Part shown: piece by piece, positions 35,673 to 54,526 of the stretch
Position numbering within the stretch: position 1 is the first letter of the stretch
How the letters are laid out: every line of letters starts with the position of its first letter
Assembly (NCBI GenBank): GCA_963744505.1
Contig: CAVUTL010000001.1
Coordinates: forward strand, 18,664-82,663
Reading direction: 5' to 3'
Length of the DNA stretch: 64,000 nucleotides
Origin: an uncultured Gaiellaceae bacterium
GTDB lineage: Bacteria > Actinomycetota > Thermoleophilia > Gaiellales > Gaiellaceae
Program-made: the position numbers and the translations under genes
The notes under the pieces: model-generated
Database searches by the model: none
The model's input: only the letters and a program-made list of their open reading frames with translations
What the model was told of the DNA's origin: nothing

Positions 35673-38330
35673 TCACGCTGTGGCTGCGAGGGCGTGCTGG
35701 TGCTGCGGGAGGCGCCTCGACACGACCTGCGAGACGCCGTCGGGGCCCATCGTCACGCCGTAGAGGATATCCGCGGCCTCCATCGTCCTCTTCTGGTGCG
35801 TGACGACGACGAACTGCGCGCGATCGGAGTAACGGCGGAGGAGCTCGACGAAGCGGGCGATGTTCGTGTCGTCGAGGGCAGCTTCGACCTCGTCGAGCAG
35901 ATAGAAGGCGCACGGCCGGGCGAGGAACAGCGCGAAGAGGAACGAGATCGCGCCGAGCGCCTTCTCGCCGCCCGACAGGAGCGACAGCCGCGTGATCCGC
36001 TTGCCCGCGGGTCGGAGCTCCACCTCGACGCCCGGCTCACCCCCTTCGTCGTCCGCCTCGACGAGTCTGAGGCGGCCCTCACCGCCGGGGAAGAGCGTGG
36101 AGGCGACCTCTTCGAAGTGCTCGGCAACCGCCGTCGAAGGTCGCGGCGAAGCGCCGCTCGACCGTCGCCGTGAGCTCCGCGCGGAGCGCGTCGAGCTCTT
36201 CGAGGCTCCGCTCGAGATCCTCGCGCTGCGTCTTCAGGTCGTCGAGACGCTCCTTCTCGGCCTCGTACTCCTCACGTGCCAGCGGATTGACCTGACCGAG
36301 CGTCGCGCGGCGCACCTCGAGCCGGTCGACGCGGGTCGACGAGCTCGTCGCGGTCCTCGCCCTCGGCCGGCTCGACCTCGCCCGCCGACTCGAGCCGCCG
36401 GCTCGCCTCCGCGACATCCGCGTCGATGTGCGCGATCTCGACCTCTGCGGCCGTGACCGCCGCGCTGGCCTCCTCGAGCTCGCGTCGGAGGTTCACCTCG
36501 GTCGCGCCGAGAGTGCGTAGCTCCTCGCCGAGCTCGCCCGCTCTCGTCGAGCCGGCGTCGACGCGCGCGCGGAGCGGTGCCTCGAAGCGGCCGGCCGCGT
36601 GTTGCGCCGCCTCGATCCCGTCGCGCAGCGCGGACGCGAGGTCGACGAGTCGCGTCGAGCATCGCCGCGTCGATCGACGTGGCGCGCAAGCCGGGGCGCC
36701 TTCCCGAACGCCGCCTCCGCGACACGCGCCTGCTCTGCCGCAACTTCCGCGGCCCGACTTGCGGTAGCGACCTCGTCCTCGAGAGTCGGCGGCTTCGGCG
36801 GCGAGCGCCGTGCGCCGTCCCTGGAGCTCGAGCAGAACCGCCTCCGCGGTCTCGCCGACGAACCAGAGCTCGCCGCGAGCCGGGTCGTAGCCGAAGCCCT
36901 CGGGCGTGACGGAGGGCGCCGTGACGTCGAGCAGCGCGTCGAGCGGGACGACCGGGTACTCGCCGACGAGATCCTGCGGAGAGCGTCCGGCGAGCACCGT
37001 GAGGCTTCCGAGCCCTGCCGAGCGAGCGCGCTGGAGAAGCGCAAGCCCGACCGCAGGATCGTCGGCGATGACCGCGGCCGCGCGCGTGCGAAGTGCGGCC
37101 GCGACGGCTCGCTCGGCGCCCGGCTCGACATCGAGCGCGGCGAGCGCGAGACGCGCGCCGTCCTCTGCGAGGGCACGCGCCGCGGGAGGCAGGCCCTCCT
37201 GCTCGGCGAGAGCCTGGTCGAGGGCACGCACGCGCTCGCGGACGAGCGACGCGCGCTCGGCCAGAGCGGTGCGCTCCCGTTCCGTGCGCCGTGCGGCCTC
37301 CGCGGCGCGCACGGCGTCGAGCTCGAGACGAGCAAGCTCGCTCTGGCCATCGGCAGCTTCCGGTTCCGCAGGCGTTTCCGCCCGGAACCGCTCCAGCAGC
37401 TGCAGAGGCCGACTCGGATCTCAGCTCGAGCCGCTCGATCCCGCCCTGCAACCGATAGCGGGCGGCAACCGCCGCCTCACGCCGCCCGGCGGCGTCGGAG
37501 AGCTCCTCCTCGGCTCGGGCGCGATCGGCGAGCAGCCCCTCGAGTCTTCCCTGCGCCCCTCGCTTCGCGAACGCTGCGGTGTCGCGGCGCTCCTCGGCCT
37601 CCGCCCGGCGTGAGCCCGAGTCGGCGAGATCGAGCTGAGCGATCCGCGCCCGCAGGCCGGCGACCTCGACCGCGAGCTTCTCCGCGCGCTCGGCCGCCGT
37701 CGCCTGCAGCGCGAGCGGCCGCAAACGCTTCCGCACTTCGTCTTCGACGTCACGAGCCCGCTCGACCTGGAGCGCGACGCGCGCGAGCTTCATCTCGGCG
37801 CGATGACGACGGCGCTTGAACTTCCCGAGGCCTGCGGCCTCCTCGACGAACGCGCGCCGATCCTCCGCCTTGGACGCGAGAATCTGCTCGACCTTCCCCT
37901 GCCCCACGATCGAGTGCATCGCCGCCCCGAGGCCGACGTCGGCGAGGATCTCGACGAGATCCGTGCGCCGCACGGCTGCGCGGTTGACGAGGTACTGGCC
38001 TTCGGCCCCACGGACGAGCCGTCGCGCGATCGAGACCTCGGAGAAGTCGAGGTCGGGCCAGGCGCCGTCCTCGTTGTCGAAGACGAGCTCGACCTCGCAG
38101 TGCTCCGCCGCCTTGCGATCGCCCCCGCCCGCGAAGAGGACGTCGTCGGGCTTCTCGGCTCGCAGCTCGGACGGCGCCAGCGAGCCGGCCGCCCAGACGA
38201 TCGCGTCGGCGATGTTGGACTTCCCGGAGCCGTTCGGCCCGACGATGACGGCGACGCCCGGCTCGAGCGAGATCTCGAGCGAGTCCGGAAACGACTTGAA
38301 ACCGCGGATGCGGAGCGAGCGCAGGTGCAC
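35673..38330 (-). CDS. smc: Chromosome partition protein Smc, split over at least 5-6 frame breaks as assembled
   Basis: N-terminus VHLRSLRIRGFKSFPD...GPNGSGKSN (ORF 36234..38399). The coiled coil and hinge are pieces in ORFs 36272..37312, 36493..37350 and 36079..36417. The C-terminus is LSGGEKALGAISFLFALF...YLLDEVEAALD...VVTHQKRTM (35673..36023). Confidence 0.85.
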
Positions 38331-39102: not shown

Positions 39103-39729
39103 TCAGATCCGGTCGGGCACGACGCCGAGCGCCTCGAGCGCCTGGCGCGCGGCCTCCTGCTCGGCGGCCTTCTTCGTCGAGCCCTTGCCGACGCCGAGCT
39201 GCTCTCCCGCAACGTGTGCCGCGCAGACGAACTGGCGGTCGTGCGGCGGGCCCTCGACCTCGAGCACCGTGTAGTGGACGTGCTTGCCCGAGCGGGCGAG
39301 CGCTTCCTGAAGCTCGGTCTTGTAGTCGACATGGCTCGAGCGCGCGTACTCGATGCGCTCCGAGAACGCGTCGACGATCGCCGGCTCGATGGCCTCGAAC
39401 CCGTGCTCGAGGTAGACGGCGGCGATCGCCGCCTCGAGGATCGCAGCGAGCACGTTCCGGCTGCGAGAGATGCGCTGGAGCTCGTCGGCCGGGGCATCGC
39501 CCGCGTACTCGAGCAGACGATCGCCGAGACCGAGCTCCTTCGCCACCGCCGCGCAGCTCTGCCGTGAAACGACATGCGCGCGAACCTTTGCGAGCCGACC
39601 CTCCGAGGCGGCGCTGAAGCGGTCGAAGACCGCGCGAGCGATCGCGAGCTCGAGAACACTGTCGCCGAGGAACTCGAGCCGTTCGTACGAGTCCGAGCGG
39701 TCGTCGACCCACGACGTATGGGTGAACAC
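39103..39729 (-). CDS. rnc: Ribonuclease III
   Basis: FTHTSWV...SYERLEFLGDSVLELAI (the signature motif) plus a C-terminal dsRBD. The frame stays open upstream (ELGRLIAELPADKLEQ) without a canonical start, so the true N-terminus may be longer. Confidence 0.9.
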   Translation of the reverse strand: MFTHTSWVDDRSDSYERLEFLGDSVLELAIARAVFDRFSAASEGRLAKVRAHVVSRQSCAAVAKELGLGDRLLEYAGDAPADELQRISRSRNVLAAILEAAIAAVYLEHGFEAIEPAIVDAFSERIEYARSSHVDYKTELQEALARSGKHVHYTVLEVEGPPHDRQFVCAAHVAGEQLGVGKGSTKKAAEQEAARQALEALGVVPDRI

Positions 39730-39802
39730 CTGCTCGAGCTTGTCGGCGGGCAGCTCGGCGATCAGCCGGCCTAGCTCGTACGGCCCGGCGGTTGGGTCGA
39801 GC

Positions 39803-40051
39803 TCAGCCCTGATGCGCGATGACGTAGTCGATCGCCTTGCCGACGGTTGTGAGCTCGCGGGCGTCCTCGTCCGGGATCTTCAGCCCGAACTGGTCCTCGA
39901 GGTCCATGACGACCTCCACGAGATCGAGCGAGTCGGCTCCGAGGTCCTCTTCGAACGACGCCTCTTCCGTGATCTCGCTCTCGTCGATGCCGAGCTTCTC
40001 GCTCAGTGCGCCTTTGACCTGCTCGAGGATCTCCTCACGCGATGTCGCCAT
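39803..40051 (-). CDS. acpP: Acyl carrier protein
   Basis: 82 aa with LGADSLDLVEVVMDLE (the phosphopantetheine Ser motif). Confidence 0.95.
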   Translation of the reverse strand: MATSREEILEQVKGALSEKLGIDESEITEEASFEEDLGADSLDLVEVVMDLEDQFGLKIPDEDARELTTVGKAIDYVIAHQG

Positions 40052-40061
40052 CCTTGAAACC

Positions 40062-41063
40062 TCACCTCTCTACCGTCGGGGTCGTGGAGCGCGCCGATGC
40101 TAACACGCCGCGCGACAGACGCTCCTGTAGGCGCTCGACCACGCGGTGCTCGACTCCGCGGGCCGCGTGGCGGATGGCATTCGCGATGGCAATGCGAGAG
40201 CTCGAGCCGTGCGCGATCACCACGAGCCCGTTGAGCCCGAGCAGGTAGCCGCCGCCGTAGGTCTCGGGATCGAGGCGCGCGCGAAGCTTCCGCGCGGCCG
40301 GCCGGATCAGGGCGCCGCCGAGCTTCCCGCGCGAGGACGCCTCGAGCTCCTCGCGCAGCGCGTCGAGCAGGCTCTTGACCGTACCCTCGAGCGTCTTGAG
40401 CGCGACGTTGCCCGTGAAGCCGTCCGCAACGACGACATCCGCCTCGCCCTCGAGCAGCGTCCGCCCTTCGGTGTTCCCGGCGAACCGCAGGCCCGCCGTT
40501 CGAAGGAGCTCGTGCGCCTCGAGCGTGAGCTGGCTGCCCTTCTCGGGCTCCTCGCCGATCGAGAGGAGCCGCACCTCGGGATCCGGCACCTCGAGGATCT
40601 CCTCCGCGAAGACCGAGCCCATGTGGGCGAATTGGACGAGGTGCTCTGGCCGCGCGTCGGCGTTCGCACCCGCGTCGATGAGCACGCTGCGCCCACGCTT
40701 CGTGGGGATGACGATCGCGATTCCGGGCCGATGGACGCCGGGGAGCCGGCGGATGTGCAGCAGCGACGCCGCGAGCATTGCGCCCGTGTTCCCGGCCGAG
40801 ACGACCGCGTCCGCATCGCCGTCCGCCACCGCCCGCGCGGCGCGGACGAGAGACGAGTCCGGCTTCGAGCGGACTGCGTCGACCGCGTGATCGTCCATGT
40901 CGATCGACTCCGACGCCTCGATGAGCTGGAGCCCGTGCGTCTCGAGACCCGCGGGACCGACGAGCACCGGCTGGATGTCCGCGGTTGCGGCGTCGACAGC
41001 ACCGAGCACGATCTCGTCGGGTGCATGGTCGCCACCGAGAGCATCCACGGCGACTCGGGTCAT
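40062..41063 (-). CDS. plsX: Phosphate acyltransferase PlsX
   Basis: 333 aa with VAVDALGGDHAP, SAGNTGA and DGFTGNVALK. Confidence 0.95.
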   Translation of the reverse strand: MTRVAVDALGGDHAPDEIVLGAVDAATADIQPVLVGPAGLETHGLQLIEASESIDMDDHAVDAVRSKPDSSLVRAARAVADGDADAVVSAGNTGAMLAASLLHIRRLPGVHRPGIAIVIPTKRGRSVLIDAGANADARPEHLVQFAHMGSVFAEEILEVPDPEVRLLSIGEEPEKGSQLTLEAHELLRTAGLRFAGNTEGRTLLEGEADVVVADGFTGNVALKTLEGTVKSLLDALREELEASSRGKLGGALIRPAARKLRARLDPETYGGGYLLGLNGLVVIAHGSSSRIAIANAIRHAARGVEHRVVERLQERLSRGVLASARSTTPTVER

Positions 41064-41074
41064 CCGTGGAGTAT

Positions 41075-41260
41075 CTACGCGTCGAGGCGGAGCGGCTCGA
41101 CGTCCCGGCCCTTGTACGTCTTGCAGCTCGGGCAGACGCGATGCGGCCGCTTGGGCTGCTTGCAGGTCGGGCAGACCTGGAGGCGCGGGACGGAGATCCC
41201 GTGCTGGGCGCGGCGCTTGTCGCGCCTCGATCTCGATGTCTTTCGCTTCGGGACGGCCAT
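41075..41260 (-). CDS. rpmF: 50S ribosomal protein L32
   Basis: [20 protein letters not shown]...[22 protein letters not shown]. Confidence 0.95.
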
Positions 41261-41273
41261 GAGCGGCTGGTGA

Positions 41274-42860: not shown

Positions 42861-43074
42861 CGACGGACCTCCGAGACCGTGGTGATAGTGCGCAACCAGC
42901 GTGCGCACGGGTACGGGAATGGGGCGCGTCAGTCCGTCATAGGTCGGCGCCGAGGCGCCGCCGGCCATCGTAGACGACGTGGTTAGGGCGATGTAAGGCC
43001 GTGTAAGAGGTCCGCAAGGGTTCGCGACTCTCAGCCGGTCGAGCGGTCATAACCATGACGACCAAGGAGGAGCA

Positions 43075-44163
43075 ATGTCCTTTGGAAGAGCAGTCGTAGC
43101 CGCCGTGGCAGCTTCCATCGTCGTGCTGCCGTCCGGCGAGGGTATAGCGGCGCCTGCCGCTCCGCCGACGAACACCGGTGAGCCGTCGATCAGCGGACGC
43201 GCCGCGCAGGGCGTGAGGCTGACGGCGTCGCCGGGTACATGGAACGGAACAGCGCCGATCTCGTTCACGTATCAGTGGGTGCGCTGCGGCGTCGACGGCG
43301 GGCAACCCGACGGCGGCAACTGCGCGATCATCTCCGGGGCAACCGACCGTAGGTACCGGCTGACGAACGCTGACGTCGGGTCGAGGATGAGGGTCCGTGT
43401 GACGGCGACGAACGCCGAGGGCTCTCGAATCGTGGCCTCCAACGCCACGAACGTCGTCACCGGAGCGCCGGTGAACACAGCGGGGCCGTCCGTTCGCGGA
43501 AGTCTGGTGGTCGGCTCCGTCGTGACCGCCGATCCGGGCTCCTGGACTGGCACGCAGCCGATCACGTTCTCGTACCGGTGGCTTCGCTGCAACTCCCAGG
43601 GCGGCGCATGCGTCGCCATCGGCGGTGCCACGCGATCGACGTACCGGCTCGTCTCCGCGGACGCGGGTCACAAGATCCGCTTCAACGTCACGGCGCGGAA
43701 CTCGACAGGGTCGACGACCGTCCTCTCGGGCGAGTCGCCGATCGTCACCGAGCCGCTTCCGTCGGGCGCGATCCGACTCCCGAGCGGCGAGATCTCGATT
43801 CCCGCGTCGAGCGTCCCGTCGACTGCGCGATTGATCGTGTCGCAGGTCGCCTTCTCACCGAATCCCGTGAGGAGCCGGAGTGAGGTGATCACCGTCCGCG
43901 TCAGAACCAAGGACACGCGAGGCTTCGTCATCCGTGACGCACTCGTGTTCATCCGTTCGACACCTCGCGTGACGACCGGCGGCGATCGCCAGGTGACGAC
44001 GACGGACGGCTGGGTGACGTACCAGCTCGCGCCGAACGAGAACTTTCCGAAGCCGCGGAACGGCTACAACGTGCAGTTCTTCGTGAAGGCGTACCGCTCC
44101 GGCGATCCGGGCCTTGCAGGGATCGCGGGCTACCGGCTCGTCCAGGTTCGCCTGGCAGGGTGA
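43075..44163 (+). CDS. Secreted protein with two tandem Ig-like repeats of about 85 aa plus a C-terminal beta-rich domain
   Basis: Signal peptide MSFGRAVVAAVAASIVVLPSGEGIAAPA. The repeats are P.I.G..V.G..LTASPGTWNGTAPISFTYQWVRC...C..I.GAT...Y.L...D.G and ...PGSWTGTQPITFSYRWLRC.... Strong SD AAGGAGGAG. Confidence 0.8.
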   Translation: MSFGRAVVAAVAASIVVLPSGEGIAAPAAPPTNTGEPSISGRAAQGVRLTASPGTWNGTAPISFTYQWVRCGVDGGQPDGGNCAIISGATDRRYRLTNADVGSRMRVRVTATNAEGSRIVASNATNVVTGAPVNTAGPSVRGSLVVGSVVTADPGSWTGTQPITFSYRWLRCNSQGGACVAIGGATRSTYRLVSADAGHKIRFNVTARNSTGSTTVLSGESPIVTEPLPSGAIRLPSGEISIPASSVPSTARLIVSQVAFSPNPVRSRSEVITVRVRTKDTRGFVIRDALVFIRSTPRVTTGGDRQVTTTDGWVTYQLAPNENFPKPRNGYNVQFFVKAYRSGDPGLAGIAGYRLVQVRLAG

Positions 44164-47013: not shown

Positions 47014-47543
47014 CGCGCGAACACCGTAATCCGCGCGGAACCGTAGCGCCGCGTCGTGACGAGGTCGAGCGGAAGGTCGGGCTCGACGCGGTCGGCGGTC
47101 TCGACCACGACGAGGGCGTCGTCTGCAAGCACGCCGGGGATCAGCTCGGCGAGCAGGCTCGCCTGCTGCTGCCACTCGTCGTACGGCGGGTCGACGAGCA
47201 CGAGATCGAAAGTACGCCCTCGGGCGCGTTCGTCCCGCAGCGCTCCCGCGACGTCGCGAGTCGTGACGACCGCTCCGGTGAGTCGCAGCTTCTCCAGGTT
47301 GGTCTGGATCACACGCACCGCGTCGCGGTTGCTCTCGACGAAGACGCAGCTGTCGGCCCCACGCGACAGCGCCTCGAGCCCCATCGCCCCAGAGCCGGCG
47401 TAGAGATCCAGCACGGCAGCGCCCTCGACGCGACCGATCATCGAGAACGCCGCCTCCCGCACGCGGTCTCCTGTCGGTCGCGTGCGTGCGCCCTTCGGAG
47501 CCGCGATGCGATGACCCTTTCGCGATCCGGCAACGATCCTCAC
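47010..47543 (-). CDS. rsmD: 16S rRNA (guanine966-N2)-methyltransferase RsmD
   Basis: 177 aa with RPTGDRVREAAF, LDLYAGSGAMGLEALSRGA and LVDPPY. Confidence 0.9.
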   Translation of the reverse strand: MRIVAGSRKGHRIAAPKGARTRPTGDRVREAAFSMIGRVEGAAVLDLYAGSGAMGLEALSRGADSCVFVESNRDAVRVIQTNLEKLRLTGAVVTTRDVAGALRDERARGRTFDLVLVDPPYDEWQQQASLLAELIPGVLADDALVVVETADRVEPDLPLDLVTTRRYGSARITVFAR

Positions 47544-49639
47544 GACTCGCCGAGGTGCTCCGCCTCGCCGAGGAGGCGGTCGACGGCCTCGCCGAGGAGC
47601 CCGTCGGCCGGGATCGAGCGGGCGGCGTCGCGGGCGCGCTCCAGGAGGGCCCGGTCGCGCCGCAGGCGAACGAAGCGGAGATCGGAGTAGCCGGACTGGC
47701 GCGCCCCGAGCAGTTGCCCCTCACCACGGATCTCGAGGTCGCGCTCGGCGAGCTCGAAGCCATCGGTCGTCTCGACCATCGCCTCGAGCCGTTCGGTCGC
47801 GGTCTCGGAGAGCTCCTCCTTCGCACGTGACACGAGCAGGCAGTACGACTGCTCTGCTCCGCGCCCGACACGGCCGCGAAGCTGGTGGAGCTGCGCGAGA
47901 CCGAACCGGTCCGCTTCCTGGACGATCATGATCGTCGCGTTCGGGACGTCGACTCCGACCTCGATCACCGTCGTCGCGACCAGGACATCCAGCTCGCGGG
48001 CCTTGAACTGCGCCATCACGCTCCGCCGCTCCGCCGGGCGCAGCCGGCCATGGAGGCAACCGACGCGATAGCCGCGGAGCTCCGCAGCACGAAGCCGCTC
48101 GGCCTCCTCCTCGGCAGCACGGGCAACACGTGTCTCGGACGCCTCGATCAGAGGGCACACGACATAGGCCTGTCGGCCGTCGTCGAGGTGCCGACAGAGT
48201 CTCGAGTAGGCCTCCGAGCTCCGATCCTCGGTCACCCACGCGGTGACGATCGGCTTGCGGTCCGCAGGCGGCTGCGTGAGCTCGGAGACGTCGAGATCGC
48301 CGTACACGGTCAGCGCCAACGTTCGCGGAATCGGGGTCGCGGTGAGGTGCAGGACGTGCGGGCTGCGCCCCTCGACGAGCGCCGTGCGCTGCGCGACGCC
48401 GAAGCGATGCTGCTCGTCCACGACGGCAACGGCGAGGTCGGAGAAGTCGACCTCCTTCTCGATGAGCGCGTGCGTCCCGACGACCACCTGCGCGTCGCCC
48501 GAGGCGATGAGCTGACGCGCGGCGGCGTGCTCCTTGGCACGCAGCGAGCTCGTGAGGAGGGTGACGCGCACGCCGAGTGGCCCACAGAGCTCGTCGATCG
48601 TCAGGAAGTGCTGTTCGGCGAGGGTCTCGGTCGGCGCCATCAAGGCGCCCTGGCGTCCGACCTCGACCGCGCGCAGCAGGGCGTGCAGGGCGACCACGGT
48701 CTTGCCCGACCCCACGTCCCCTTGCAGGAGACGCTGCATCGGAACCTCGCGGTCGAGTTCCGCGTCGATCTCGGACGTCGCGCGCGCCTGATCGGCCGTG
48801 AGCGTGAACGGGAGCGACTCGCGATACCGAGTCAGGAGCTCGCCCGGAGCGCCGAGCTGTTGCGCGGAGGCGCTCGCACGCGCAGCCGCCGTCCGGAGGA
48901 GCGCCAGGCGCAGGACGAGCAGCTCGTCGAACGCGAGACGCACGCGCGCCGCCTCTGCTTCGGGCAGCGACCGTGGACGATGGATCGCAGCGAGAGCGTC
49001 GGCACGGAGCGGGAGGCGCTCGGACGCGAGGACGGCAGCCGGCACGTCGTCGCCGATGTCGCGCGCGAGCTCGAGTGCCTGGGCATGCACGTTGCGGAGC
49101 GTCTTCTGCGCCACGTCTTCCGTCGCCGGATAGACGGGAGCGAGATCACCGGGCTCCGCCTCGCCGTCCAGGTCGTACGAGGACACGGCAAAGCCGTGGC
49201 GGTTGGCGCGCCCGCGAATCCGCAGCGCGGTTCCGGGCACGAGCTTCGCCCCGAGCCACGGCTGGTTGAACCAGGTCGCCTTGATCTCTCCCGTCTCGTC
49301 GGCGACGCGTGCCGTGAGGATCTTGAGACGACCACGCCGACGGCTCGTCGCCGCCCGGACGACGACCTCGATGACCGCCTCCTCGTCGCCGAAGAGGTCG
49401 CAGATCCTCTTGGTCGGAGCAGGCTCCTCGTAGCGCCTCGGCGGTTGCCAGAGGACGTCCTCCACCGTCGCGAGGCCGAGCTTCGCGAGCCGGCGGGCGA
49501 TCGCCGGACCGACGCCCTGCAGCGACTCGACCGAGGCGACGAGACGATCCGACCTCGGCGCGGACCGCGGCCGCGGCCAGCGTTCAGGCGCGTCGCTGCC
49601 GGCGAAGCCGGCCTGCGCTCGGGCGATCGTCGTCCCCAT
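47540..49639 (-). CDS. recG: ATP-dependent DNA helicase RecG
   Basis: 699 aa, intact, with a wedge domain, GDVGSGKTVVA, DEQHRFGV and QLRGRVGRG. Confidence 0.95.
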   Translation of the reverse strand: MGTTIARAQAGFAGSDAPERWPRPRSAPRSDRLVASVESLQGVGPAIARRLAKLGLATVEDVLWQPPRRYEEPAPTKRICDLFGDEEAVIEVVVRAATSRRRGRLKILTARVADETGEIKATWFNQPWLGAKLVPGTALRIRGRANRHGFAVSSYDLDGEAEPGDLAPVYPATEDVAQKTLRNVHAQALELARDIGDDVPAAVLASERLPLRADALAAIHRPRSLPEAEAARVRLAFDELLVLRLALLRTAAARASASAQQLGAPGELLTRYRESLPFTLTADQARATSEIDAELDREVPMQRLLQGDVGSGKTVVALHALLRAVEVGRQGALMAPTETLAEQHFLTIDELCGPLGVRVTLLTSSLRAKEHAAARQLIASGDAQVVVGTHALIEKEVDFSDLAVAVVDEQHRFGVAQRTALVEGRSPHVLHLTATPIPRTLALTVYGDLDVSELTQPPADRKPIVTAWVTEDRSSEAYSRLCRHLDDGRQAYVVCPLIEASETRVARAAEEEAERLRAAELRGYRVGCLHGRLRPAERRSVMAQFKARELDVLVATTVIEVGVDVPNATIMIVQEADRFGLAQLHQLRGRVGRGAEQSYCLLVSRAKEELSETATERLEAMVETTDGFELAERDLEIRGEGQLLGARQSGYSDLRFVRLRRDRALLERARDAARSIPADGLLGEAVDRLLGEAEHLGES

Positions 49640-49674
49640 CGAACGCTTCCACTATAGGTCCCGCGTACGCGGGG

Positions 49675-50241
49675 CTAACCGTCTATTGCGAGCGTGTAGA
49701 GCCAGCCGGGCTGCCAGCGGAACGAGCCCTCGACCAGCTCTTCCAGCGGCGCCCCCTCGAGAACGTGGTCGAACGCCCACTTCGTCGCCGAGTGGCCGAT
49801 CACGATGATGCGGCGATCCGCATACCGGGGCGAGAGGTCCTGCAGGAAGCTCCGCACTCGCGCGACGACGTCGACGTAGCTCTCGCCGCCGGAGTACGGG
49901 TCGAGGACGTGCTTCGTCCGCTCGACTTCGAGCCGCGCCACCGCGGTACCGTTGAGCATCCCGTAGTTGCACTCGCGAAGGCGCCAGTCGTGGAAGATGG
50001 GCAGGCCGCGTCCGCCGAACGCGATCTCGGCCGTCTCGACGGCGCGACCGAGGTCCGAGCAGAACACGGCGACGAGCTCGTCCTCGGCGCGACGGTCGCC
50101 GAGCTCCCGCGCCTGCCGGCGCCCCAGCGGAGAGAGCTGCCCATCGAGCCAGCCCGAGGCGACCCAGCGCTCGTTGTCCGTCGTCGTCGAGTGTGTCTCG
50201 AAGACGATCTCAACCGATGACGCGCGCCTGCGCCGTGCCAT
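49675..50241 (-). CDS. Histidine phosphatase (phosphoglycerate-mutase-like) family protein
   Basis: 188 aa with an RHG-position variant (FETHSTT), LSPLGRRQA and VIGHSAT. Confidence 0.75.
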   Translation of the reverse strand: MARRRRASSVEIVFETHSTTTDNERWVASGWLDGQLSPLGRRQARELGDRRAEDELVAVFCSDLGRAVETAEIAFGGRGLPIFHDWRLRECNYGMLNGTAVARLEVERTKHVLDPYSGGESYVDVVARVRSFLQDLSPRYADRRIIVIGHSATKWAFDHVLEGAPLEELVEGSFRWQPGWLYTLAIDG

Positions 50242-50244
50242 GTC

Positions 50245-51108
50245 TCAATCCGTGTCTTGAAACCAGAAGAAGCCGACCGCACCCGGCCCCGCATGTGTGC
50301 CGACGACCGCTCCCAGCGTCGACGTGAACTCGATCTCCGCCTTCGGTCGCACGCGCCAGGCGAGCTCGGAGAGCGTGCCGACCCACTCCTCGGAGTCGGC
50401 ATGCGCGATCGCGACTCGAAGGCCGGGCTCGTCCGTGGTCTCCTCGGCGAAGCGGCGCTCGAACTCCGCCAGAGCCTTCTGCTTTCCCCGCACCCGCGCC
50501 GCGGCGATCACGACGCCGTCGTCGACGCTCAGCACCGGCCGCAGGTTCAGGAGCGAGCCGGCGATCGCCTGGGCCTTGCCGATCCGGCCACCACGCTGCA
50601 GGTACTCGAGCGTCTCGACCGTGAAGAGCACGTTCGAGTGAGCGTAGAAGCGGTCGACGAGCGCCGAGATCTCCTCGTCGGTCGTGCCACGCGCGAGCCG
50701 ACGCTGAATCGCGTGCGACAACATCGCGATCGCGAGCGACGCCGTCATCGAATCGACGACCCGTACCTTGTCGCCGCCGATCTCCTGCGCGGCGAGCTCA
50801 GCGCTCTGGAACGTCCCGGAGACCTTGGCCGAGACGTGGAGCGAGTAGATCCGCTCGTACGCGCCAAGCTCCTCGTAGGCCGTGACGAAGTCCTGCGGCG
50901 TCGGCTGCGCAGTAGCCGGCGTCACGGGTGATAGGCGGAGCTTGTCGTAGAACTCGGTCGGCCCGAGCTCGAGGTAGTCGCGGAAGGTCTCGTCGCCGAA
51001 GCGCACATACAGCGGCACGAACCGCATGTTCGGGAAGCGGGCCGGCGCGTCGGGATAGTCCGACGTCGAGTCGAGGACGATCGCCGTGTTCTCGCTCGTC
51101 AGGTTCAC
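50245..51108 (-). CDS. DegV family fatty-acid-binding protein (FakB-like)
   Basis: GTG 51108 with SD GGGAGG. Sequence VNLTSENTAIVLDSTSDYP...TAQPTPQDF...LHVSAKVSGTFQSA...GTHAGPGAVG. Confidence 0.9.
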   Translation of the reverse strand: MNLTSENTAIVLDSTSDYPDAPARFPNMRFVPLYVRFGDETFRDYLELGPTEFYDKLRLSPVTPATAQPTPQDFVTAYEELGAYERIYSLHVSAKVSGTFQSAELAAQEIGGDKVRVVDSMTASLAIAMLSHAIQRRLARGTTDEEISALVDRFYAHSNVLFTVETLEYLQRGGRIGKAQAIAGSLLNLRPVLSVDDGVVIAAARVRGKQKALAEFERRFAEETTDEPGLRVAIAHADSEEWVGTLSELAWRVRPKAEIEFTSTLGAVVGTHAGPGAVGFFWFQDTD

Positions 51109-51113
51109 GCACC

Positions 51114-51479
51114 TCACCTCCCTGCCGCTGCCTGGATGGCCCGAACGAGCGCGTCGATCCCCTCGTCCTTGCGCACGAGCGCAGCGCCTGCGCTCGACGC
51201 GGCATCGTACTCGTCTCGCCCTGCGGAGGCACTCAGGAAGACGACCGCGCCGTCGATGTCGGCCGCGACCTTCGAGCCGTCCACGTCGGGCAGCCGGTAG
51301 TCGAGCACGACCACATCCGGCAGGTGCTCGCGGTACGCCCGAACGGCCGAGGCACCGTCCGGCACGGCGCCGACGACGTCGAGCCCCGTCCGGGTGCCGA
51401 GGAGAAACACGAGCGAGTCGCGGTAGACCTCGTTGTCCTCGACCAGCAGGATGCGGATCGGCGACGCGGGCTCGGTCAC
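51114..51479 (-). CDS. Stand-alone response-regulator receiver domain (121 aa, no output domain)
   Basis: IRILLVEDNEVY (acidic pocket), VVVLDYRLPDVDG (phospho-acceptor Asp), VVFLSASAG (Ser/Thr position), LVRKDEG (Lys). The GTG overlaps the fakA stop (GTGA), and the gene ends 5 nt before the degV start. Confidence 0.85.
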   Translation of the reverse strand: MTEPASPIRILLVEDNEVYRDSLVFLLGTRTGLDVVGAVPDGASAVRAYREHLPDVVVLDYRLPDVDGSKVAADIDGAVVFLSASAGRDEYDAASSAGAALVRKDEGIDALVRAIQAAAGR

Positions 51480-53070
51480 TGAGCGACGAGCAGGAGCGGG
51501 TAGTGCGGCTGCCCGCCCTCGTGGATCTCCACTTCGAGGTCGGGATGGCGCTCCTCGAATGCCGCGACGAAGCCGTCGAGAGCCGGCGCATCCTCGCCGG
51601 TGAGGATGGTGAGGAAGCTCTGCCCGCCGGCGAGCACGCGATCGACGACCTCGTGCACCACGACGTCGAGATCCGGACCGGAGACAACGGCGACGTCGTC
51701 GACGAGCCCGAGGTATGCGCCCTCCTCGATGTCGATTCCGTCGAGCGTCGCGTTGCGCGACGCAACCGTGATCTCCCCCGTCGCTGCCCCGGCGAGCTCC
51801 TCGAGCATCGCGCGCTCGTTCTCGTCCGGCGGCACTGTGGGAAGGAAGCGCCCCATCGCGGCGAAGCCCGCCTGCACCGAGCGCGCCGGGACGACGCGCA
51901 CGTTCTTCTCGCTCATCGCCGCCGCCTGCTCGGCGGTGAGGATCACATTCGAGTTGTTCGGGAGGACGAGCACGTCGTCCGTGGGAACGGCCTCGATCGC
52001 CTCGAGGATGTCCTTGGCCGACGGATTCATCGACTGGCCGCCCTCGATCACGCGGGTCGCGCCGAGGCTCTCGAAGAGCCGCCGGTTACCCCGGCCGGGA
52101 CACACGGCAACGACGCCGGTCTCGAGCGTCGCGAGCGCACTGGACCCCCGCCGTCGAGGAGACGCTCCTCGCGCTGAACGGTCTGGTGGTGCATGTTCGC
52201 GATCTCCACGCCTTCGACCACGCCGACCGCCGTCCCGAGCATGAGCGCGTGCCCGGGGTCGTCGGTGTGGACGTGCACCTTGAGCGCCGTCTCGTCGCCG
52301 ACGACGAGGAGCGAGTCGCCGATCTTCTCGAGCTCGCCTTCGAGCGCGTCCTTGTCGAGCTCCTGGCCCTCCACCACGAACACCGTGCAGTAGCGGTACT
52401 CCGAGAGCTCCAGGTGGATGGCGTCGAAGCCGAGCGACTCCGCCTCGACCGGTGCCTCCGGGAGCTCCTCGCCGGTCGCGCCGTAGACCATGCCGCGTGC
52501 GATCTCGACGAGACCGGCCCCACCGGCATCGACGACGCCCGCGTTGCGCAGGACGTCGAGCATCTCGGGCGTGCGGGCAACCGCATCCTCGCCGGCCGCG
52601 AGGATCGCGCGAAGGAGGTCGTTCGGCGAAACGCGGCGGTGGTCCTTCCGCTCGCTCTCCTCGGCCATCTCGCGGATGACGGTGAGCATCGTCCCCTCGA
52701 CGGGACGCTTCACCGCGCGGTACGCCGCATCGCTCGCCCCGCGGAACGCTCGGCTGAGCAACGTCGCGCTCACACCCTCGTGCTCGCCGAGGACCTCGAC
52801 GAAGCCGCGCACGATCTGCGAGAAGATGACGCCCGAGTTGCCGCGCGCGCCCATGAGCGCAGCGCGCGTGACGTCCTTCGCGACCGCCTCGCTGTCGACA
52901 GCCGTGGACGCGTCGAGCGCCTCGACGATCGAGCGCAGCGTAAGCACGAGGTTCGTCCCGGTGTCGCCGTCGGGCACCGGATAGACATTCAGGTCGTCGA
53001 TCCGGCGTCTGTGCGCCTCGAGGTTCTGGAGCGCGCTGCGCGCCAGATGGCGGACGACCTCGAGCTCCAT
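51476..53070 (-). CDS. DAK2-domain protein YloV (FakA-like fatty acid kinase subunit), with a frame break in the C5 run at 52145-52149
   Basis: MELEVVRHLARSALQNLEAH...VYPVPDGDTGTNL...GARGNSGVI (DAK2) in ORF 52048..53424. The C-terminal half ...ALATLETGVVAVCPGRGNRRLFESLGATRVIEGGQSMNPS... is in ORF 51476..52105. Confidence 0.85.
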
Positions 53071-53424
53071 CAGTGCGCTCGCACGCCTTCGATGTGGACC
53101 TCGCAGGGACGCAATCGGGAGGCCGACCATGCGCTCGAGCTCGTACTGCACACGCGAGCGGACGGTCTCCGCCACCTCGGCGAGCTTCAGACCGTGCTCG
53201 ACCACCACGCGGAGCTCGACGACCAGTCCGTCAGGGCGGAGATCGACGTCGACGCCCTTCTTGATCCCCCACGGGATGAGGCGCGAGACGCGCCCCCGTC
53301 CCGCGAGCGCGACGACGCCGTAGCTCTCGGCCGCCGCCGCACCGACGATCTGCGTCACCGCGCTCGGCGAGACGGCGATGCGGCCGCGGTCGGTCGTGGC
53401 GATCACGAATGGCTCGCGCTCCAC
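53070..53424 (-). CDS. Asp23/DUF322 family protein (YloU-like), with a frame break near 53105
   Basis: MEREPFVIATTDRGRIAVSPSAVTQIVGAAAAESYGVVAL...VVELRVVVEHG...VQYELERMVGLPIA, then in the next frame EVHIEGVRAH-stop. That stop overlaps the fakA ATG (TGATG). Confidence 0.8.
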
Positions 53425-53455
53425 AGCGCGAGCCTACTACCCCGCGCGAGCGAGG

Positions 53456-53647
53456 CTAGACGGCCTTCTGGACCTTGCCGGCCTTGAGGCAGCGCGTGCA
53501 GACGTACGCCCGTGTCGCGTGGCCGTCGAGCACCACGCGGACGCGCTGGAGGTTCGGGTTGAAGCGTCGCTTCGTCGCGACCATGGAGTGGCTCCGGCTG
53601 TTGCCGAAGCCTGGCTTCTTCCCGCAGATGGCGCAGACCTTGGACAT
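53456..53647 (-). CDS. rpmB: 50S ribosomal protein L28
   Basis: [38 protein letters not shown]. Confidence 0.95.
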
Positions 53648-53693
53648 GCGGCCGAGGATGGTACCGATCCGGCCCAGCCCTCTGCCGCTCGTA

Positions 53694-53713
53694 GGGGCGA
53701 GGCTTGCCTCGCC
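53694..53713 (-). terminator. Hairpin after ribH; exact second copy of the 20302..20321 hairpin
   Basis: GGGCGAGGC-TT-GCCTCGCCC, 6 nt beyond the ribH stop at 53720-53722 and upstream of rpmB. Confidence 0.6.
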
Positions 53714-53719
53714 CTGGCG

Positions 53720-54526
53720 TCAGCGCGCCGCTGCGGCCCGGAGATGGGCGAAGAGATCCGCCATCTCGAGCGCACTGCGAACGGCTTCGGCACCCTTTCC
53801 GATCCGCGGCTCCGCCTGCTCGACGCGATCGAGTGTGAGGACGCCGAAGGAGACGGGGACCCCGGTCTCGAGGGCTGCCAGCTGGAGGCCGCTCGCCGCC
53901 TCGCTGGACACGTAGTCGAAGTGCGGCGTGTCGCCGCGGATGATGCAGCCGAGCGCGACGATGCATGCGAACCGCCGCGTCTTCGCGAGCGCGGTCGCCG
54001 CAAGTGGCAGCTCGAACGCACCGGGGACGACCATGATCGTGACCGCCTCCTGCCGCACTCCCGCAGCGGCGAGCTCGGCAAGGGCACCGTCGAGGAGCTG
54101 GGTCGTGACGCTTCCGTTGAAGCGCGACACGACGACGCCGACGGCTCGTCGCCCGCCCTCGGCGACACCCTCGAGCACGGCGTAGCCGTCCGGGATGTGC
54201 AGATCACCGGCGGCGTGCTCCTGTGAGAGCTCGACATGCATCGGCGCCTCGTCGACCTCGGCGGCGTCGGCTTCGGACGCCTCCTCCTCCTCAGCGGCCT
54301 CGGCGACCTCGACGACATCCGATTCGTCGTCCGTCTCGATCTCGACCGCCGTGGCGACGACGGGCTCGTCCAGCTCGGTCGTCGCGGTCGCCGTCCCCCA
54401 CGCCGGCGCCCCGTCGTCCTCGGCAACGTCGACCTCCAGCTCCTCTGGCTCATCGGCGCGCTCCTCCTCCCGCTCCCAGTCGTGGAGGACGTTCTCGCTC
54501 GTCGAGTCGATGTCGCGGCTGCTCAC
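53720..54526 (-). CDS. ribH: 6,7-dimethyl-8-ribityllumazine synthase with a 95-aa acidic N-terminal extension (alternative short start at ATG 54241)
   Basis: The core is VGVVVSRFNGSVTTQLL...VVPGAFELP...LGCIIRGDTPHFDYV...FGVLT. One open frame runs up to GTG 54526, which overlaps the ribBA stop (GTGA). Confidence 0.85.
   Translation of the reverse strand: MSSRDIDSTSENVLHDWEREEERADEPEELEVDVAEDDGAPAWGTATATTELDEPVVATAVEIETDDESDVVEVAEAAEEEEASEADAAEVDEAPMHVELSQEHAAGDLHIPDGYAVLEGVAEGGRRAVGVVVSRFNGSVTTQLLDGALAELAAAGVRQEAVTIMVVPGAFELPLAATALAKTRRFACIVALGCIIRGDTPHFDYVSSEAASGLQLAALETGVPVSFGVLTLDRVEQAEPRIGKGAEAVRSALEMADLFAHLRAAAAR

What the first reader, a model, noticed from the sequence alone, without database searches (positions are those of the whole stretch)
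50245..53070. A stand-alone receiver domain translationally coupled between fakA (yloV) and fakB (degV)
The operon reads asp23, then the DAK2/YloV gene (the FakA-type kinase subunit), then a 121-aa CheY-like receiver, then the DegV gene (the FakB-type fatty-acid-binding subunit). The fakA/receiver junction is a GTGA overlap, and only 5 nt separate the receiver stop from the degV start. The receiver keeps the acidic pocket (LLVEDN), the phospho-acceptor Asp (VLDYRLPD), and the Ser and Lys switch positions. It has no output domain, and no histidine kinase is nearby. Fatty acid kinase makes acyl-phosphate. Small acyl-phosphates such as acetyl phosphate are established phosphodonors for receiver domains, and in Staphylococcus FakA activity influences SaeRS two-component output. 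An in-operon receiver could therefore be phosphorylated directly by acyl-phosphate or by the DAK2 subunit. That would couple exogenous fatty-acid flux to a signalling or allosteric output. I am not aware of this wiring being described.
Basis: inference. Interest (0 to 1): 0.65.

Follow-up and report, generated by a model that had tools for sequence, protein, structure and literature searches.

The report
Receiver protein inside fatty-acid-kinase operon
A small phosphorylation-switch protein with no output domain sits between the two subunits of fatty acid kinase in a whole order of soil actinobacteria (Gaiellales), an undescribed arrangement that makes the idea of acyl-phosphate charging a signalling protein testable again after it failed in Staphylococcus.

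Summary
On the minus strand the window reads rpmB, asp23, fakA, a 121-aa receiver (REC), fakB/degV, a histidine-phosphatase-family gene, then recG. The fakA/REC GTGA overlap and the 5-nt REC-degV spacer are as described. Identical short-read contigs lack both, so they are assembly errors.

REC is a canonical receiver of the NarL/DesR lineage without the DNA-binding domain. The linkage is not unique:
- All 50 species genomes with an orthologue have fakA-REC-degV.
- So do 62 of 64 metagenome loci found through DegV alone.
- The five phospho-chemistry residues are kept in 100 orthologues (four invariant, E14 98%), and Ka/Ks is 0.20.
- Metatranscriptome contigs cross both junctions.
- No histidine kinase lies in the 64-kb window.
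- REC divergence tracks FakB more than FakA.

Best reading: a phosphorylatable accessory switch dedicated to Fak. That idea was published in 2014 and failed for SaeR in 2017. I found no paper describing the operon. It is a new variant of a known kind.

The parts
53456..53647 (-). rpmB (ribosomal protein L28), first conserved gene of the block
   Evidence: ORF. PF00830 in the same position in relatives. A tblastn match was found upstream of asp23/fakA in nearly all loci that reach that far.
53070..53424 (-). asp23/yloU-family gene. The window carries a 1-nt insertion near 53103 that hides its true end (...ASLEVHIEGVRAH*). The corrected stop overlaps the fakA ATG (TGATG).
   Evidence: PF03780, E 2.5e-17. 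A zero-mismatch DNA contig lacks one base at 53103 (X1 record 7). Relatives have a separate Asp23 of 116-118 aa.
51476..53070 (-). fakA (Dak2 + FakA-like_M + FakA-like_C). In the window it is split by a 1-nt deletion; once corrected it is 531 aa.
   Evidence: Pfam hits on the two ORF halves. Three-frame translation shows the frame switch at ...LLDGGG|SSALATLETG.... The DGDTGTN motif, and the Cys and HVH residues of FakA_L, are visible. Domain roles are taken from PMC9136124.
52145..52149 (.). C5 homopolymer (G5 on the coding strand) where the window lacks one base; an assembly error
   Evidence: The DNA alignment with four intact orthologues shows a 1-nt gap. A 265-nt DNA contig with 0 mismatches has an extra C after 52144 (X1 record 4).
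51476..51479 (-). GTGA overlap of the fakA stop and the REC start (translational coupling)
   Evidence: Read from the sequence. The same 4-nt overlap occurs in 30 of 49 genome-derived loci and 22 of 53 scorable metagenome loci; most of the rest have gaps of 1-32 nt.
51114..51479 (-). Stand-alone receiver (single-domain response regulator), 121 aa. Key residues: E14, D15, D60 (acceptor), S83, K104.
   Evidence: PF00072 only. AF2 pLDDT 94.9 with a (beta-alpha)5 fold. Foldseek TM 0.85-0.89 to M. tuberculosis NarL REC and DesR. Catalytic residues kept in 100 orthologues, four invariant and E14 98%. Ka/Ks 0.20.
51109..51121 (-). REC stop, 5-nt spacer and a GGAGG Shine-Dalgarno-like site ahead of the degV GTG
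   Evidence: Read from the sequence. In orthologues the REC/degV junction is most often a 4-nt overlap, otherwise usually a gap of up to about 13 nt.
50245..51108 (-). fakB (DegV family fatty-acid-binding subunit), 287 aa
   Evidence: PF02645, E 3.4e-73. The T, S-G-T, GGRIG and H-x-G-P-G positions are invariant in 16 orthologues.
49675..50241 (-). Histidine-phosphatase-superfamily gene starting 3 nt after the degV stop; a clade-limited passenger of the operon
   Evidence: PF00300, E 2.9e-30. It is present only in the closer Gaiellaceae loci and absent in the deeper clades.
47540..49639 (-). recG, the conserved downstream neighbour
   Evidence: ORF. Pfam RecG domains in relatives.
40062..41273 (-). 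plsX (acyl-ACP:phosphate transacylase, a user of acyl-phosphate), about 10 kb downstream; acpP follows at 39803-40069
   Evidence: PF02504, E 1.5e-94, and PF00550. The position is the same in relatives.

Best explanation
The 121-aa protein is a working single-domain response regulator. It descends from a NarL/DesR-type regulator that lost its DNA-binding domain, and it became a fixed, translationally coupled component of the asp23-fakA-REC-fakB operon early in the Gaiellales lineage.

It most likely acts by protein-protein contact on the fatty acid kinase itself, with FakB the more likely partner. Phosphorylation of D60 would switch that contact. The switch would gate how much fatty acid is turned into acyl-phosphate, or how it is handed on to PlsX/PlsY.

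For the phosphoryl source I rank an unlinked histidine kinase of the HisKA_3 (DesK/NarX-like) type slightly above self-charging from the Fak product.

Shown:
- gene structure and receiver fold;
- retention of the phospho-chemistry residues;
- order-wide linkage and purifying selection;
- transcripts crossing both junctions;
- absence of a linked kinase.

Inferred:
- that it is phosphorylated;
- that its target is Fak or FakB;
- the identity of the donor.
For: - Fold and family: PF00072 only. AF2 pLDDT 94.9, pTM 0.89. The closest solved structures are M. tuberculosis NarL REC, DesR, VraR and LiaR.
- Among the near non-orthologous relatives whose domains were scanned are hybrid kinases with HisKA_3 and a full-length REC+GerE regulator at 45% identity.
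- Chemistry is kept: D15, D60, S/T83 and K104 are invariant and E14 is 98% in 100 orthologues that are down to about 40% identical overall.
- Selection: Ka/Ks is 0.20, the same as FakA_C.
- Linkage: 50 of 50 orthologue loci in GTDB species genomes and 62 of 64 loci found through DegV alone. The common junctions are 4-nt overlaps.
- Metatranscriptome contigs span fakA/REC (51318-51713) and REC/degV (51008-51204; 50850-51129).
- No kinase is conserved nearby.
- REC pairwise divergence tracks DegV best. The partial r controlling for RecG is 0.63, against 0.24 for FakA_C, 0.37 for FakA_N and 0.26 for L28. This holds in both subclades, and the bootstrap interval for the difference excludes 0.
Against: - There is no direct evidence of binding or phosphorylation.
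- The mirror-tree signal is indirect. It can arise from shared recombination history or from rate effects.
- No genuine FakA-REC or REC-FakB fusion was found. The one candidate, P0198, is an indel artefact.
- No candidate kinase was identified, because only short loci were available.
- Two related loci (L123, L126) run fakA straight into degV without REC, so Fak does not need it.
Confidence: 0.4

Rival explanations
1. One reading: kinase-independent charging. REC docks on FakB and takes the phosphoryl group from FakB-bound acyl-phosphate, an acyl phosphate of the same chemical class as acetyl phosphate. REC~P then reports or limits the acyl-phosphate pool, either by feeding back on Fak or by acting as a phosphate sink or safety valve through autodephosphorylation.
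For: - REC sits inside the operon of an enzyme whose product is a protein-bound acyl phosphate, and no kinase is linked to it in any lineage.
- REC co-diverges with FakB rather than FakA.
- Precedent: the orphan NarL-type regulator DegU of Listeria has no cognate kinase and is phosphorylated by acetyl phosphate (PMC9263151). It is co-transcribed with a DegV-family gene, yviA (PMC5491136).
- The idea was proposed for FakB(acyl-PO4) and SaeR by Parsons 2014 (PMC5083920).
Against: - In the only experimental test of Fak-to-regulator transfer, FakA + FakB2 + oleate + [32P]ATP did not label SaeR or SaeS (PMC5539427).
- Most receivers, including orphans, are charged by kinases.
- The transfer would waste ATP unless it is tightly controlled.
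- Nothing here measures phosphotransfer.
Confidence: 0.3
2. The output lies elsewhere. REC is only co-expressed with Fak and passes its signal to another target. Examples would be a phosphorelay or envelope-stress pathway linked to Asp23, or a sink for a kinase that also drives a full-length NarL-type regulator. In this reading REC does not touch FakA or FakB.
For: - Single-domain regulators such as Spo0F, DivK and CheY act on targets not encoded next to them (established knowledge).
- Full-length NarL-type relatives at about 45% identity exist.
- The block also contains asp23, and in Gaiellaceae a histidine-phosphatase-family gene.
Against: - REC is inserted exactly between fakA and fakB, with overlapping codons. 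This position is kept while other neighbours change: His_Phos_1 comes and goes, and a separate OmpR-type system is inserted in L153.
- REC divergence tracks DegV more than L28 or RecG.
Confidence: 0.12
3. Reverse flow, as with DhaM. REC~P, charged by a kinase, re-phosphorylates ADP held on the DhaL-like N-terminal domain of FakA. Alternatively, FakA phosphorylates the D60 carboxylate directly, treating it as a mimic of the fatty-acid carboxylate.
For: - FakA_N is a DhaL-type domain that holds ADP with two Mg2+ (PMC9136124).
- In PTS-dependent dihydroxyacetone kinases a phosphoprotein recharges DhaL-bound ADP (established knowledge).
- Aspartyl phosphate is itself an acyl phosphate.
Against: - There is no precedent for a receiver doing this.
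- REC co-diverges least with the FakA domains.
- FakA keeps an ordinary nucleotide-site motif.
Confidence: 0.04
4. REC is a decaying remnant of a regulator gene, or an annotation artefact, with no function.
For: It lacks an output domain, and automated pipelines label it a DNA-binding NarL/FixJ regulator.
Against: - Ka/Ks is 0.20.
- The catalytic residues are kept in 100 orthologues.
- The predicted fold is confident.
- The gene is retained in about 97% of related loci.
- It is transcribed.
Confidence: 0.02

Closest known systems
Fak and SaeRS in Staphylococcus aureus (Parsons 2014; Ericson 2017, PMC5539427)
   Same: The same enzyme pair (FakA/FakB) is functionally tied to a two-component regulator. 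The same hypothesis applies, that FakB-bound acyl-phosphate could charge a receiver.
   Different: In S. aureus the regulator (SaeR) has its own kinase, is unlinked to fak, and was not phosphorylated by Fak in vitro. The link is attributed there to fatty-acid accumulation inhibiting SaeRS signalling. Here the receiver has no output domain and no linked kinase, and it is encoded between fakA and fakB.
degU-yviA(degV) of Listeria monocytogenes and Bacillus
   Same: A NarL/LuxR-lineage receiver gene lies next to, and in Listeria is co-transcribed with, a DegV-family gene (degS-yviA flank degU). Listeria DegU is an orphan charged by acetyl phosphate.
   Different: DegU is a full transcription factor with an HTH, and no fakA is in that operon. 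Independent origin is likely: DegU is not among the closest solved relatives of this REC.
DesK-DesR membrane-fluidity system of Bacillus subtilis
   Same: The DesR receiver is among the best structural matches (TM 0.87-0.89). Both are tied to membrane lipid homeostasis.
   Different: DesR has a DNA-binding domain and an adjacent HisKA_3 kinase, and it acts on desaturase transcription. This protein has neither a DNA-binding domain nor an adjacent kinase.
Single-domain response regulators (CheY, Spo0F, DivK, CpdR)
   Same: They are receiver-only proteins that signal by protein-protein contact, with the same fold and catalytic residues.
   Different: None of these is known to be embedded in a lipid-activation operon. 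By sequence this one belongs to the NarL clade rather than the CheY clade. The beta5 switch position is Leu or Cys rather than an aromatic residue.
DhaK-DhaL-DhaM dihydroxyacetone kinase
   Same: FakA_N is DhaL-like, and in that system a small phosphoprotein encoded in the operon exchanges phosphate with the kinase (established knowledge; PMC9136124).
   Different: DhaM is built from PTS domains phosphorylated on histidine, not from a receiver phosphorylated on aspartate.

Membership tests
Response regulator receiver domain (CheY-like, PF00072) | Profile match above the curated cut-off | tested here: met
   51.9 bits against a cut-off of 30.2, covering profile positions 1-110 of 111.
Response regulator receiver domain (CheY-like, PF00072) | (beta-alpha)5 fold | tested here: met
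   AF2 model with pLDDT 94.9 and five strand-helix pairs. Foldseek TM 0.85-0.89 to solved receivers.
Response regulator receiver domain (CheY-like, PF00072) | Acidic pair, phospho-acceptor Asp, Ser/Thr and Lys | tested here: met
   E14/D15, D60, S83 and K104. D15, D60, S/T83 and K104 are 100% conserved and E14 98% in 100 orthologues.
Response regulator receiver domain (CheY-like, PF00072) | Actual phosphorylation on the Asp | not testable with these tools
   Needs Phos-tag or 32P assays.
NarL/FixJ (LuxR-type) DNA-binding response regulators (the label given by JGI) | Receiver of the NarL clade | tested here: met
   The best PDB sequence hits are M. tuberculosis NarL, a LuxR-family regulator, DevR and DesR.
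NarL/FixJ (LuxR-type) DNA-binding response regulators (the label given by JGI) | C-terminal GerE/LuxR helix-turn-helix | tested here: not met
   The protein ends after helix 5 at residue 121 and has only PF00072. All listed homologues are 116-145 aa with PF00072 only. The 'DNA-binding' annotation is wrong.
Classical operon-encoded two-component system | Cognate histidine kinase adjacent | tested here: not met
   No HisKA or HATPase_c within +-10 kb of REC in two close relatives. No HK-core match in the 64-kb window. The only kinase seen, in L153, is paired with its own OmpR-type regulator and is not conserved.
Fatty acid kinase system (FakA + FakB) | FakA with Dak2, middle and C-terminal domains; FakB of the DegV family | tested here: met
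   Pfam hits. Intact 530-532 aa FakA in relatives.
Fatty acid kinase system (FakA + FakB) | Catalytic and ligand residues (FakA DGDTGTN, Cys and HxH of FakA_L; FakB S-G-T, GGRIG, H-x-G-P-G) | tested here: met
   Seen in the translations and as invariant DegV columns. Residue roles are from PMC9136124 and from my own knowledge of FakB.
Fatty acid kinase system (FakA + FakB) | A third, receiver subunit | tested here: not met
   This is not part of the described system: the papers read describe a two-protein enzyme, and the literature searches found no such component. This is the new element.
Rosetta-stone fusion of REC with FakA or FakB | A genuine fused polypeptide somewhere | tested here: not met
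   P0198 (650 aa, FakA+REC) is a single-member cluster. The true FakA end (...AGGQPHYPLLLSAE*) lies in another frame of its contig. P0180 and P0201 are frameshift chimeras.

The most novel reading that the evidence does not exclude
Fak plus this receiver form a histidine-kinase-free signalling pair. The receiver's Asp60 is charged directly from FakB-bound acyl-phosphate, or by FakA treating the Asp carboxylate like a fatty-acid carboxylate. Exogenous fatty-acid flux would then be read out as receiver phosphorylation, which feeds back on acyl-phosphate production or release.
Probability: 0.3. Interest if true: 0.8.

Novelty: new variant of a known kind. Interest (0 to 1): 0.58.

Why it matters
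- Fak is described in the papers read here as a two-protein enzyme. A conserved third gene in the operon implies a layer of post-translational control that has not been studied.
- Gaiellales relatives of this operon turned up in most of the soil and rhizosphere metagenomes and metatranscriptomes searched, so the arrangement is common in nature.
- The locus also gives a natural test system for an old question: can long-chain acyl-phosphates, like acetyl phosphate, charge response regulators? That was raised for S. aureus SaeR and dropped after a negative in vitro test.
- A positive result here would show a route from lipid flux to two-component signalling without a histidine kinase.
- A negative result, with a cognate kinase identified, would still reveal a DesK-like pathway that controls fatty-acid uptake by protein contact instead of transcription.

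Tried and rejected
1. fakA as a pseudogene. Rejected: independent zero-mismatch contigs and intact orthologues restore both frames.
2. FakA-REC fusion P0198 as Rosetta-stone evidence. Rejected as a 1-nt indel artefact. The REC-half/DegV chimeras P0180 and P0201 are likewise rejected.
3. Looking up the window's own REC on its contig. It is not on record.
4. Finding the source reads. No run holds more than 14% of the words, so only related populations could be laid on the window.
5. A second protein search with a deep-clade REC, hoping for a cultured host such as Gaiella occulta. It returned 2457 stand-alone homologues but no organism names.
6. Promoter and terminator scan of 49400-54000. No promoter-like site, and only weak terminator-like hairpins inside coding sequence.
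7. The kinase-regulator pair 5 kb downstream in L153 as the cognate kinase. Rejected: it is a complete OmpR-type pair present in only that locus.
8. Context of the closest full-length NarL-type relative, P0241. Its contig is only 1.3 kb, so no kinase context could be seen.
9. Complex prediction. The structure tool returns no inter-chain metrics and accepts only window or search-hit sequences, so it was not attempted.
Full report
**1. What is in the sequence**

The region is about 70% G+C, and all the genes concerned lie on the minus strand. ORF listing, direct reading and Pfam give this order:

| Gene | Coordinates | Evidence |
|---|---|---|
| rpmB | 53456-53647 | ORF, PF00830 in relatives |
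| asp23 | 53070-53424 | PF03780 |
| fakA | 51476-53070 | Dak2, FakA-like_M, FakA-like_C |
| receiver (REC) | 51114-51479 | 121 aa, PF00072 only, 51.9 bits vs cut-off 30.2 |
| degV/fakB | 50245-51108 | PF02645, E 3e-73 |
| histidine-phosphatase-family gene | 49675-50241 | PF00300 |
| recG | 47540-49639 | ORF, RecG domains in relatives |

- The fakA stop and the REC start share GTGA (51476-51479).
- The REC stop TGA (51116-51114) is followed by GGTGC and then the degV GTG (51108).
- A GGAGG sits at 51121-51117.

The motifs are there: E14-D15 in LLVEDN, D60 in VLDYRLPD, S83 and K104.

**2.

In the window fakA is not one ORF.
- The N-terminal frame reads ...EERLLDGGG and then runs out of frame. 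The C-terminal part (SSALATLETGVVAVCPG...) continues in another frame.
- An alignment with four intact orthologues shows a 1-nt gap in the window at the C-run 52145-52149.
- asp23 likewise runs on into fakA, while its canonical ending VHIEGVRAH* lies in another frame.
- Laying public runs on the region settled both points. A 265-nt DNA contig with no mismatches has an extra C after 52144. A 213-nt contig with no mismatches lacks one base at 53103 (X1 records 4 and 7).
- Relatives have FakA of 530-532 aa and a separate Asp23 of 116-118 aa.

Both frameshifts are therefore assembly indel errors. smc at 35.7-37.4 kb is also split into adjacent ORFs, which fits the same problem. The corrected block is a chain of tightly abutting genes: asp23/fakA TGATG, fakA/REC GTGA, a 5-nt gap, then a 3-nt gap.

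**3. What the receiver is**

- The closest solved sequences are the receiver of M. tuberculosis NarL (3EUL, E 2e-14), Rv1626, a LuxR-family regulator, DevR, VraR and DesR.
- An AlphaFold2 model is confident (pLDDT 94.9, pTM 0.89) and shows five strand-helix pairs.
- Foldseek places it on NarL, DesR, Spo0A, VraR and LiaR receivers at TM 0.85-0.89.
- The protein ends after helix 5. There is no GerE/LuxR domain, so the pipeline label 'DNA-binding NarL/FixJ family response regulator' is wrong.
- The beta5 switch position, aromatic in NarL, is Leu here and Leu or Cys in the family.

**4. The linkage is not unique**

- Two look-ups of homologues gave the same synteny.
- A scan of one genome per GTDB species with REC as query returned 68 loci.
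- All 50 orthologue loci carry L28-(Asp23)-FakA-REC-DegV-...-RecG. REC identity in them is at least 40% over the full length (a few truncated matches score higher over shorter stretches). They are labelled Gaiellaceae, Gaiella sp., Gaiellales, Thermoleophilia or Actinomycetes MAGs.
- None of the 18 remaining loci has Fak neighbours. They show at most about 38% identity over the full length, and most are labelled as other phyla, with a few actinobacteria.
- To remove the bias of searching with REC, I searched metagenome contigs with a DegV alignment. Of 64 loci with more than 400 nt upstream of degV, 62 have REC between fakA and degV.
- Two loci (L123, L126; DegV 59% identical) have fakA abutting degV directly.
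- On a DegV neighbour-joining tree these two form a long branch nested inside one of three REC-bearing clades. This suggests secondary loss.
- Protein searches found 1189 clusters (E<=1e-5) and 2457 clusters (E<=1e-10) for the two main REC clades. All listed hits are 116-145 aa with PF00072 only.

**5. Signs of function**

- In 100 orthologues, D15, R20, V56, D60, R62, P64, G68, L82, S/T83, A84 and K104 are invariant and E14 is 98%. Overall identity falls to about 40%.
- Ka/Ks among close pairs is 0.20 for REC. It is 0.20 for FakA_C, 0.12 for DegV and 0.11 for FakA_N.
- The fakA/REC junction is a 4-nt overlap in 30 of 49 genome-derived loci and 22 of 53 scorable metagenome loci. The REC/degV junction is most often a 4-nt overlap too.
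- Rhizosphere metatranscriptome contigs cover the region. One spans 51318-51713 across fakA/REC. Others span 51008-51204 and 50850-51129 across REC/degV. DNA carry-over in those libraries cannot be excluded.

**6. Kinase search**

- No HisKA or HATPase_c gene lies within 10 kb of REC in two close relatives.
- An offline phmmer search of the six-frame window with five kinase cores found no kinase. An HMM of the REC family found no second receiver.
- One deep-clade genome has an OmpR-type regulator plus HisKA kinase pair inserted 5 kb downstream. It is a complete pair and is not conserved elsewhere.
- Among the near non-orthologous relatives whose domains were scanned are hybrid kinases with HisKA_3 and a full-length REC+GerE regulator at 45% identity. 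If a kinase exists, the DesK/NarX type is the likely class.

**7. Which Fak component does REC go with?**

- No genuine fusion was found. P0198 (650 aa, FakA+REC) is a single-member cluster. On its contig the true FakA end ...AGGQPHYPLLLSAE* is in another frame, so it is an indel artefact.
- A mirror-tree comparison on 45 loci gave a suggestive asymmetry. REC pairwise distances correlate best with DegV (r 0.92).
- Controlling for RecG, the partial r values with REC are:

| Partner | Partial r with REC |
|---|---|
| DegV | 0.63 |
| FakA_N | 0.37 |
| L28 | 0.26 |
| FakA_C | 0.24 |

- The order holds in both subclades, and the bootstrap interval of the difference excludes zero.
- The internal control, FakA_C against FakA_N on one polypeptide, gives 0.74.
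- This is weak, indirect evidence that REC evolves with FakB. Shared recombination history or rate effects could contribute.

**8. Literature**

- No paper in the searchable library describes a receiver in a fak operon.
- The mechanistic idea is not new. A review records that Parsons et al. 2014 suggested FakB(acyl-PO4) as a donor for SaeR (PMC5083920).
- Ericson et al. 2017 tested FakA, FakB2, oleate and [32P]ATP and saw no labelling of SaeR or SaeS. They attribute the phenotype to fatty-acid accumulation inhibiting SaeRS signalling (PMC5539427).
- FakA domain roles are established: an N-terminal ATP site, a middle dimerisation domain with Cys240/His282/His284, and a C-terminal FakB-binding domain (PMC9136124). 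The window proteins keep the corresponding motifs.
- A second precedent is the gene pair that gave DegV its name. In Listeria, degU is co-transcribed with yviA, a DegV-family gene (PMC5491136). Listeria DegU is an orphan NarL-type regulator that acetyl phosphate phosphorylates (PMC9263151).

**9. Interpretation**

- Firm: this is a real, expressed, selectively maintained, phosphorylation-competent single-domain response regulator of NarL/DesR descent. It has been part of the asp23-fakA-REC-fakB operon since early in the Gaiellales lineage.
- Likely but inferred: it works on the Fak enzyme by direct contact, more probably on FakB, with D60 phosphorylation as the switch.
- Open: the phosphoryl source.
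  - I rate an unlinked HisKA_3-type kinase at about 0.4 (the best explanation as stated).
  - I rate charging from FakB-bound acyl-phosphate at about 0.3.
  - The remainder goes to an output outside Fak, DhaM-like reverse transfer, and no function.

**10. Verdict**

The arrangement is a new variant of known kinds: a single-domain regulator attached to a known enzyme system. It is of moderate to good interest because it is widespread, undescribed, and offers a clean test of acyl-phosphate signalling.

Noticed in passing
window 52145-52149 and about 53103: Two single-base indel errors break fakA and fuse asp23 to fakA in the window. Zero-mismatch short-read contigs from another run carry the corrected versions.
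   Followed up: yes
window 35673-37420: smc appears split into adjacent ORFs: an SMC_N C-terminal piece at 35673-36233 and the hinge at 36272-37420. These are probably further assembly indels of the same kind.
   Followed up: partly
window 49675-50241: A histidine-phosphatase-superfamily gene starts 3 nt after the degV stop. Where the RHG motif is expected it reads FETHSTTTDN, so the usual Arg seems to be missing. The gene is present only in the closer Gaiellaceae loci and absent in deeper clades. A role as a phosphatase for the operon's phospho-species is possible but untested.
   Followed up: partly
L123 2395-4861; L126: Two related metagenome loci have fakA directly abutting degV with no receiver. 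On the DegV tree they sit on a long branch nested among receiver-bearing clades, which suggests secondary loss.
   Followed up: partly
L155 3001-4953 (protein P0198): This was called as a 650-aa FakA-receiver fusion. The canonical FakA C-terminus and stop are in another frame, so the fusion is a 1-nt indel artefact of the assembly.
   Followed up: yes
L153 15134-17154: One deep-clade genome has an OmpR-type regulator plus HisKA kinase pair and a redox gene block inserted between degV and recG. The insertion is not conserved in other loci.
   Followed up: partly
window 39103-41273: plsX, acpP and rnc lie about 10 kb downstream of the fak block. The acyl-phosphate-using PlsX is therefore in the same conserved chromosomal neighbourhood, as it is in relatives.
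   Followed up: partly
window 51114-51479 and homologues P0002-P0120: Automated annotation calls these 121-129 aa proteins 'DNA-binding NarL/FixJ family response regulator', 'NarL', 'DesR' or 'NreC', although none has a DNA-binding domain.
   Followed up: yes
window 42997-44163 (+ strand): An ORF with Ig-like AIR9/SCAB-Ig domains lies opposite the surrounding minus-strand genes. The relative L071 has a homologous gene in the same position.
   Followed up: no
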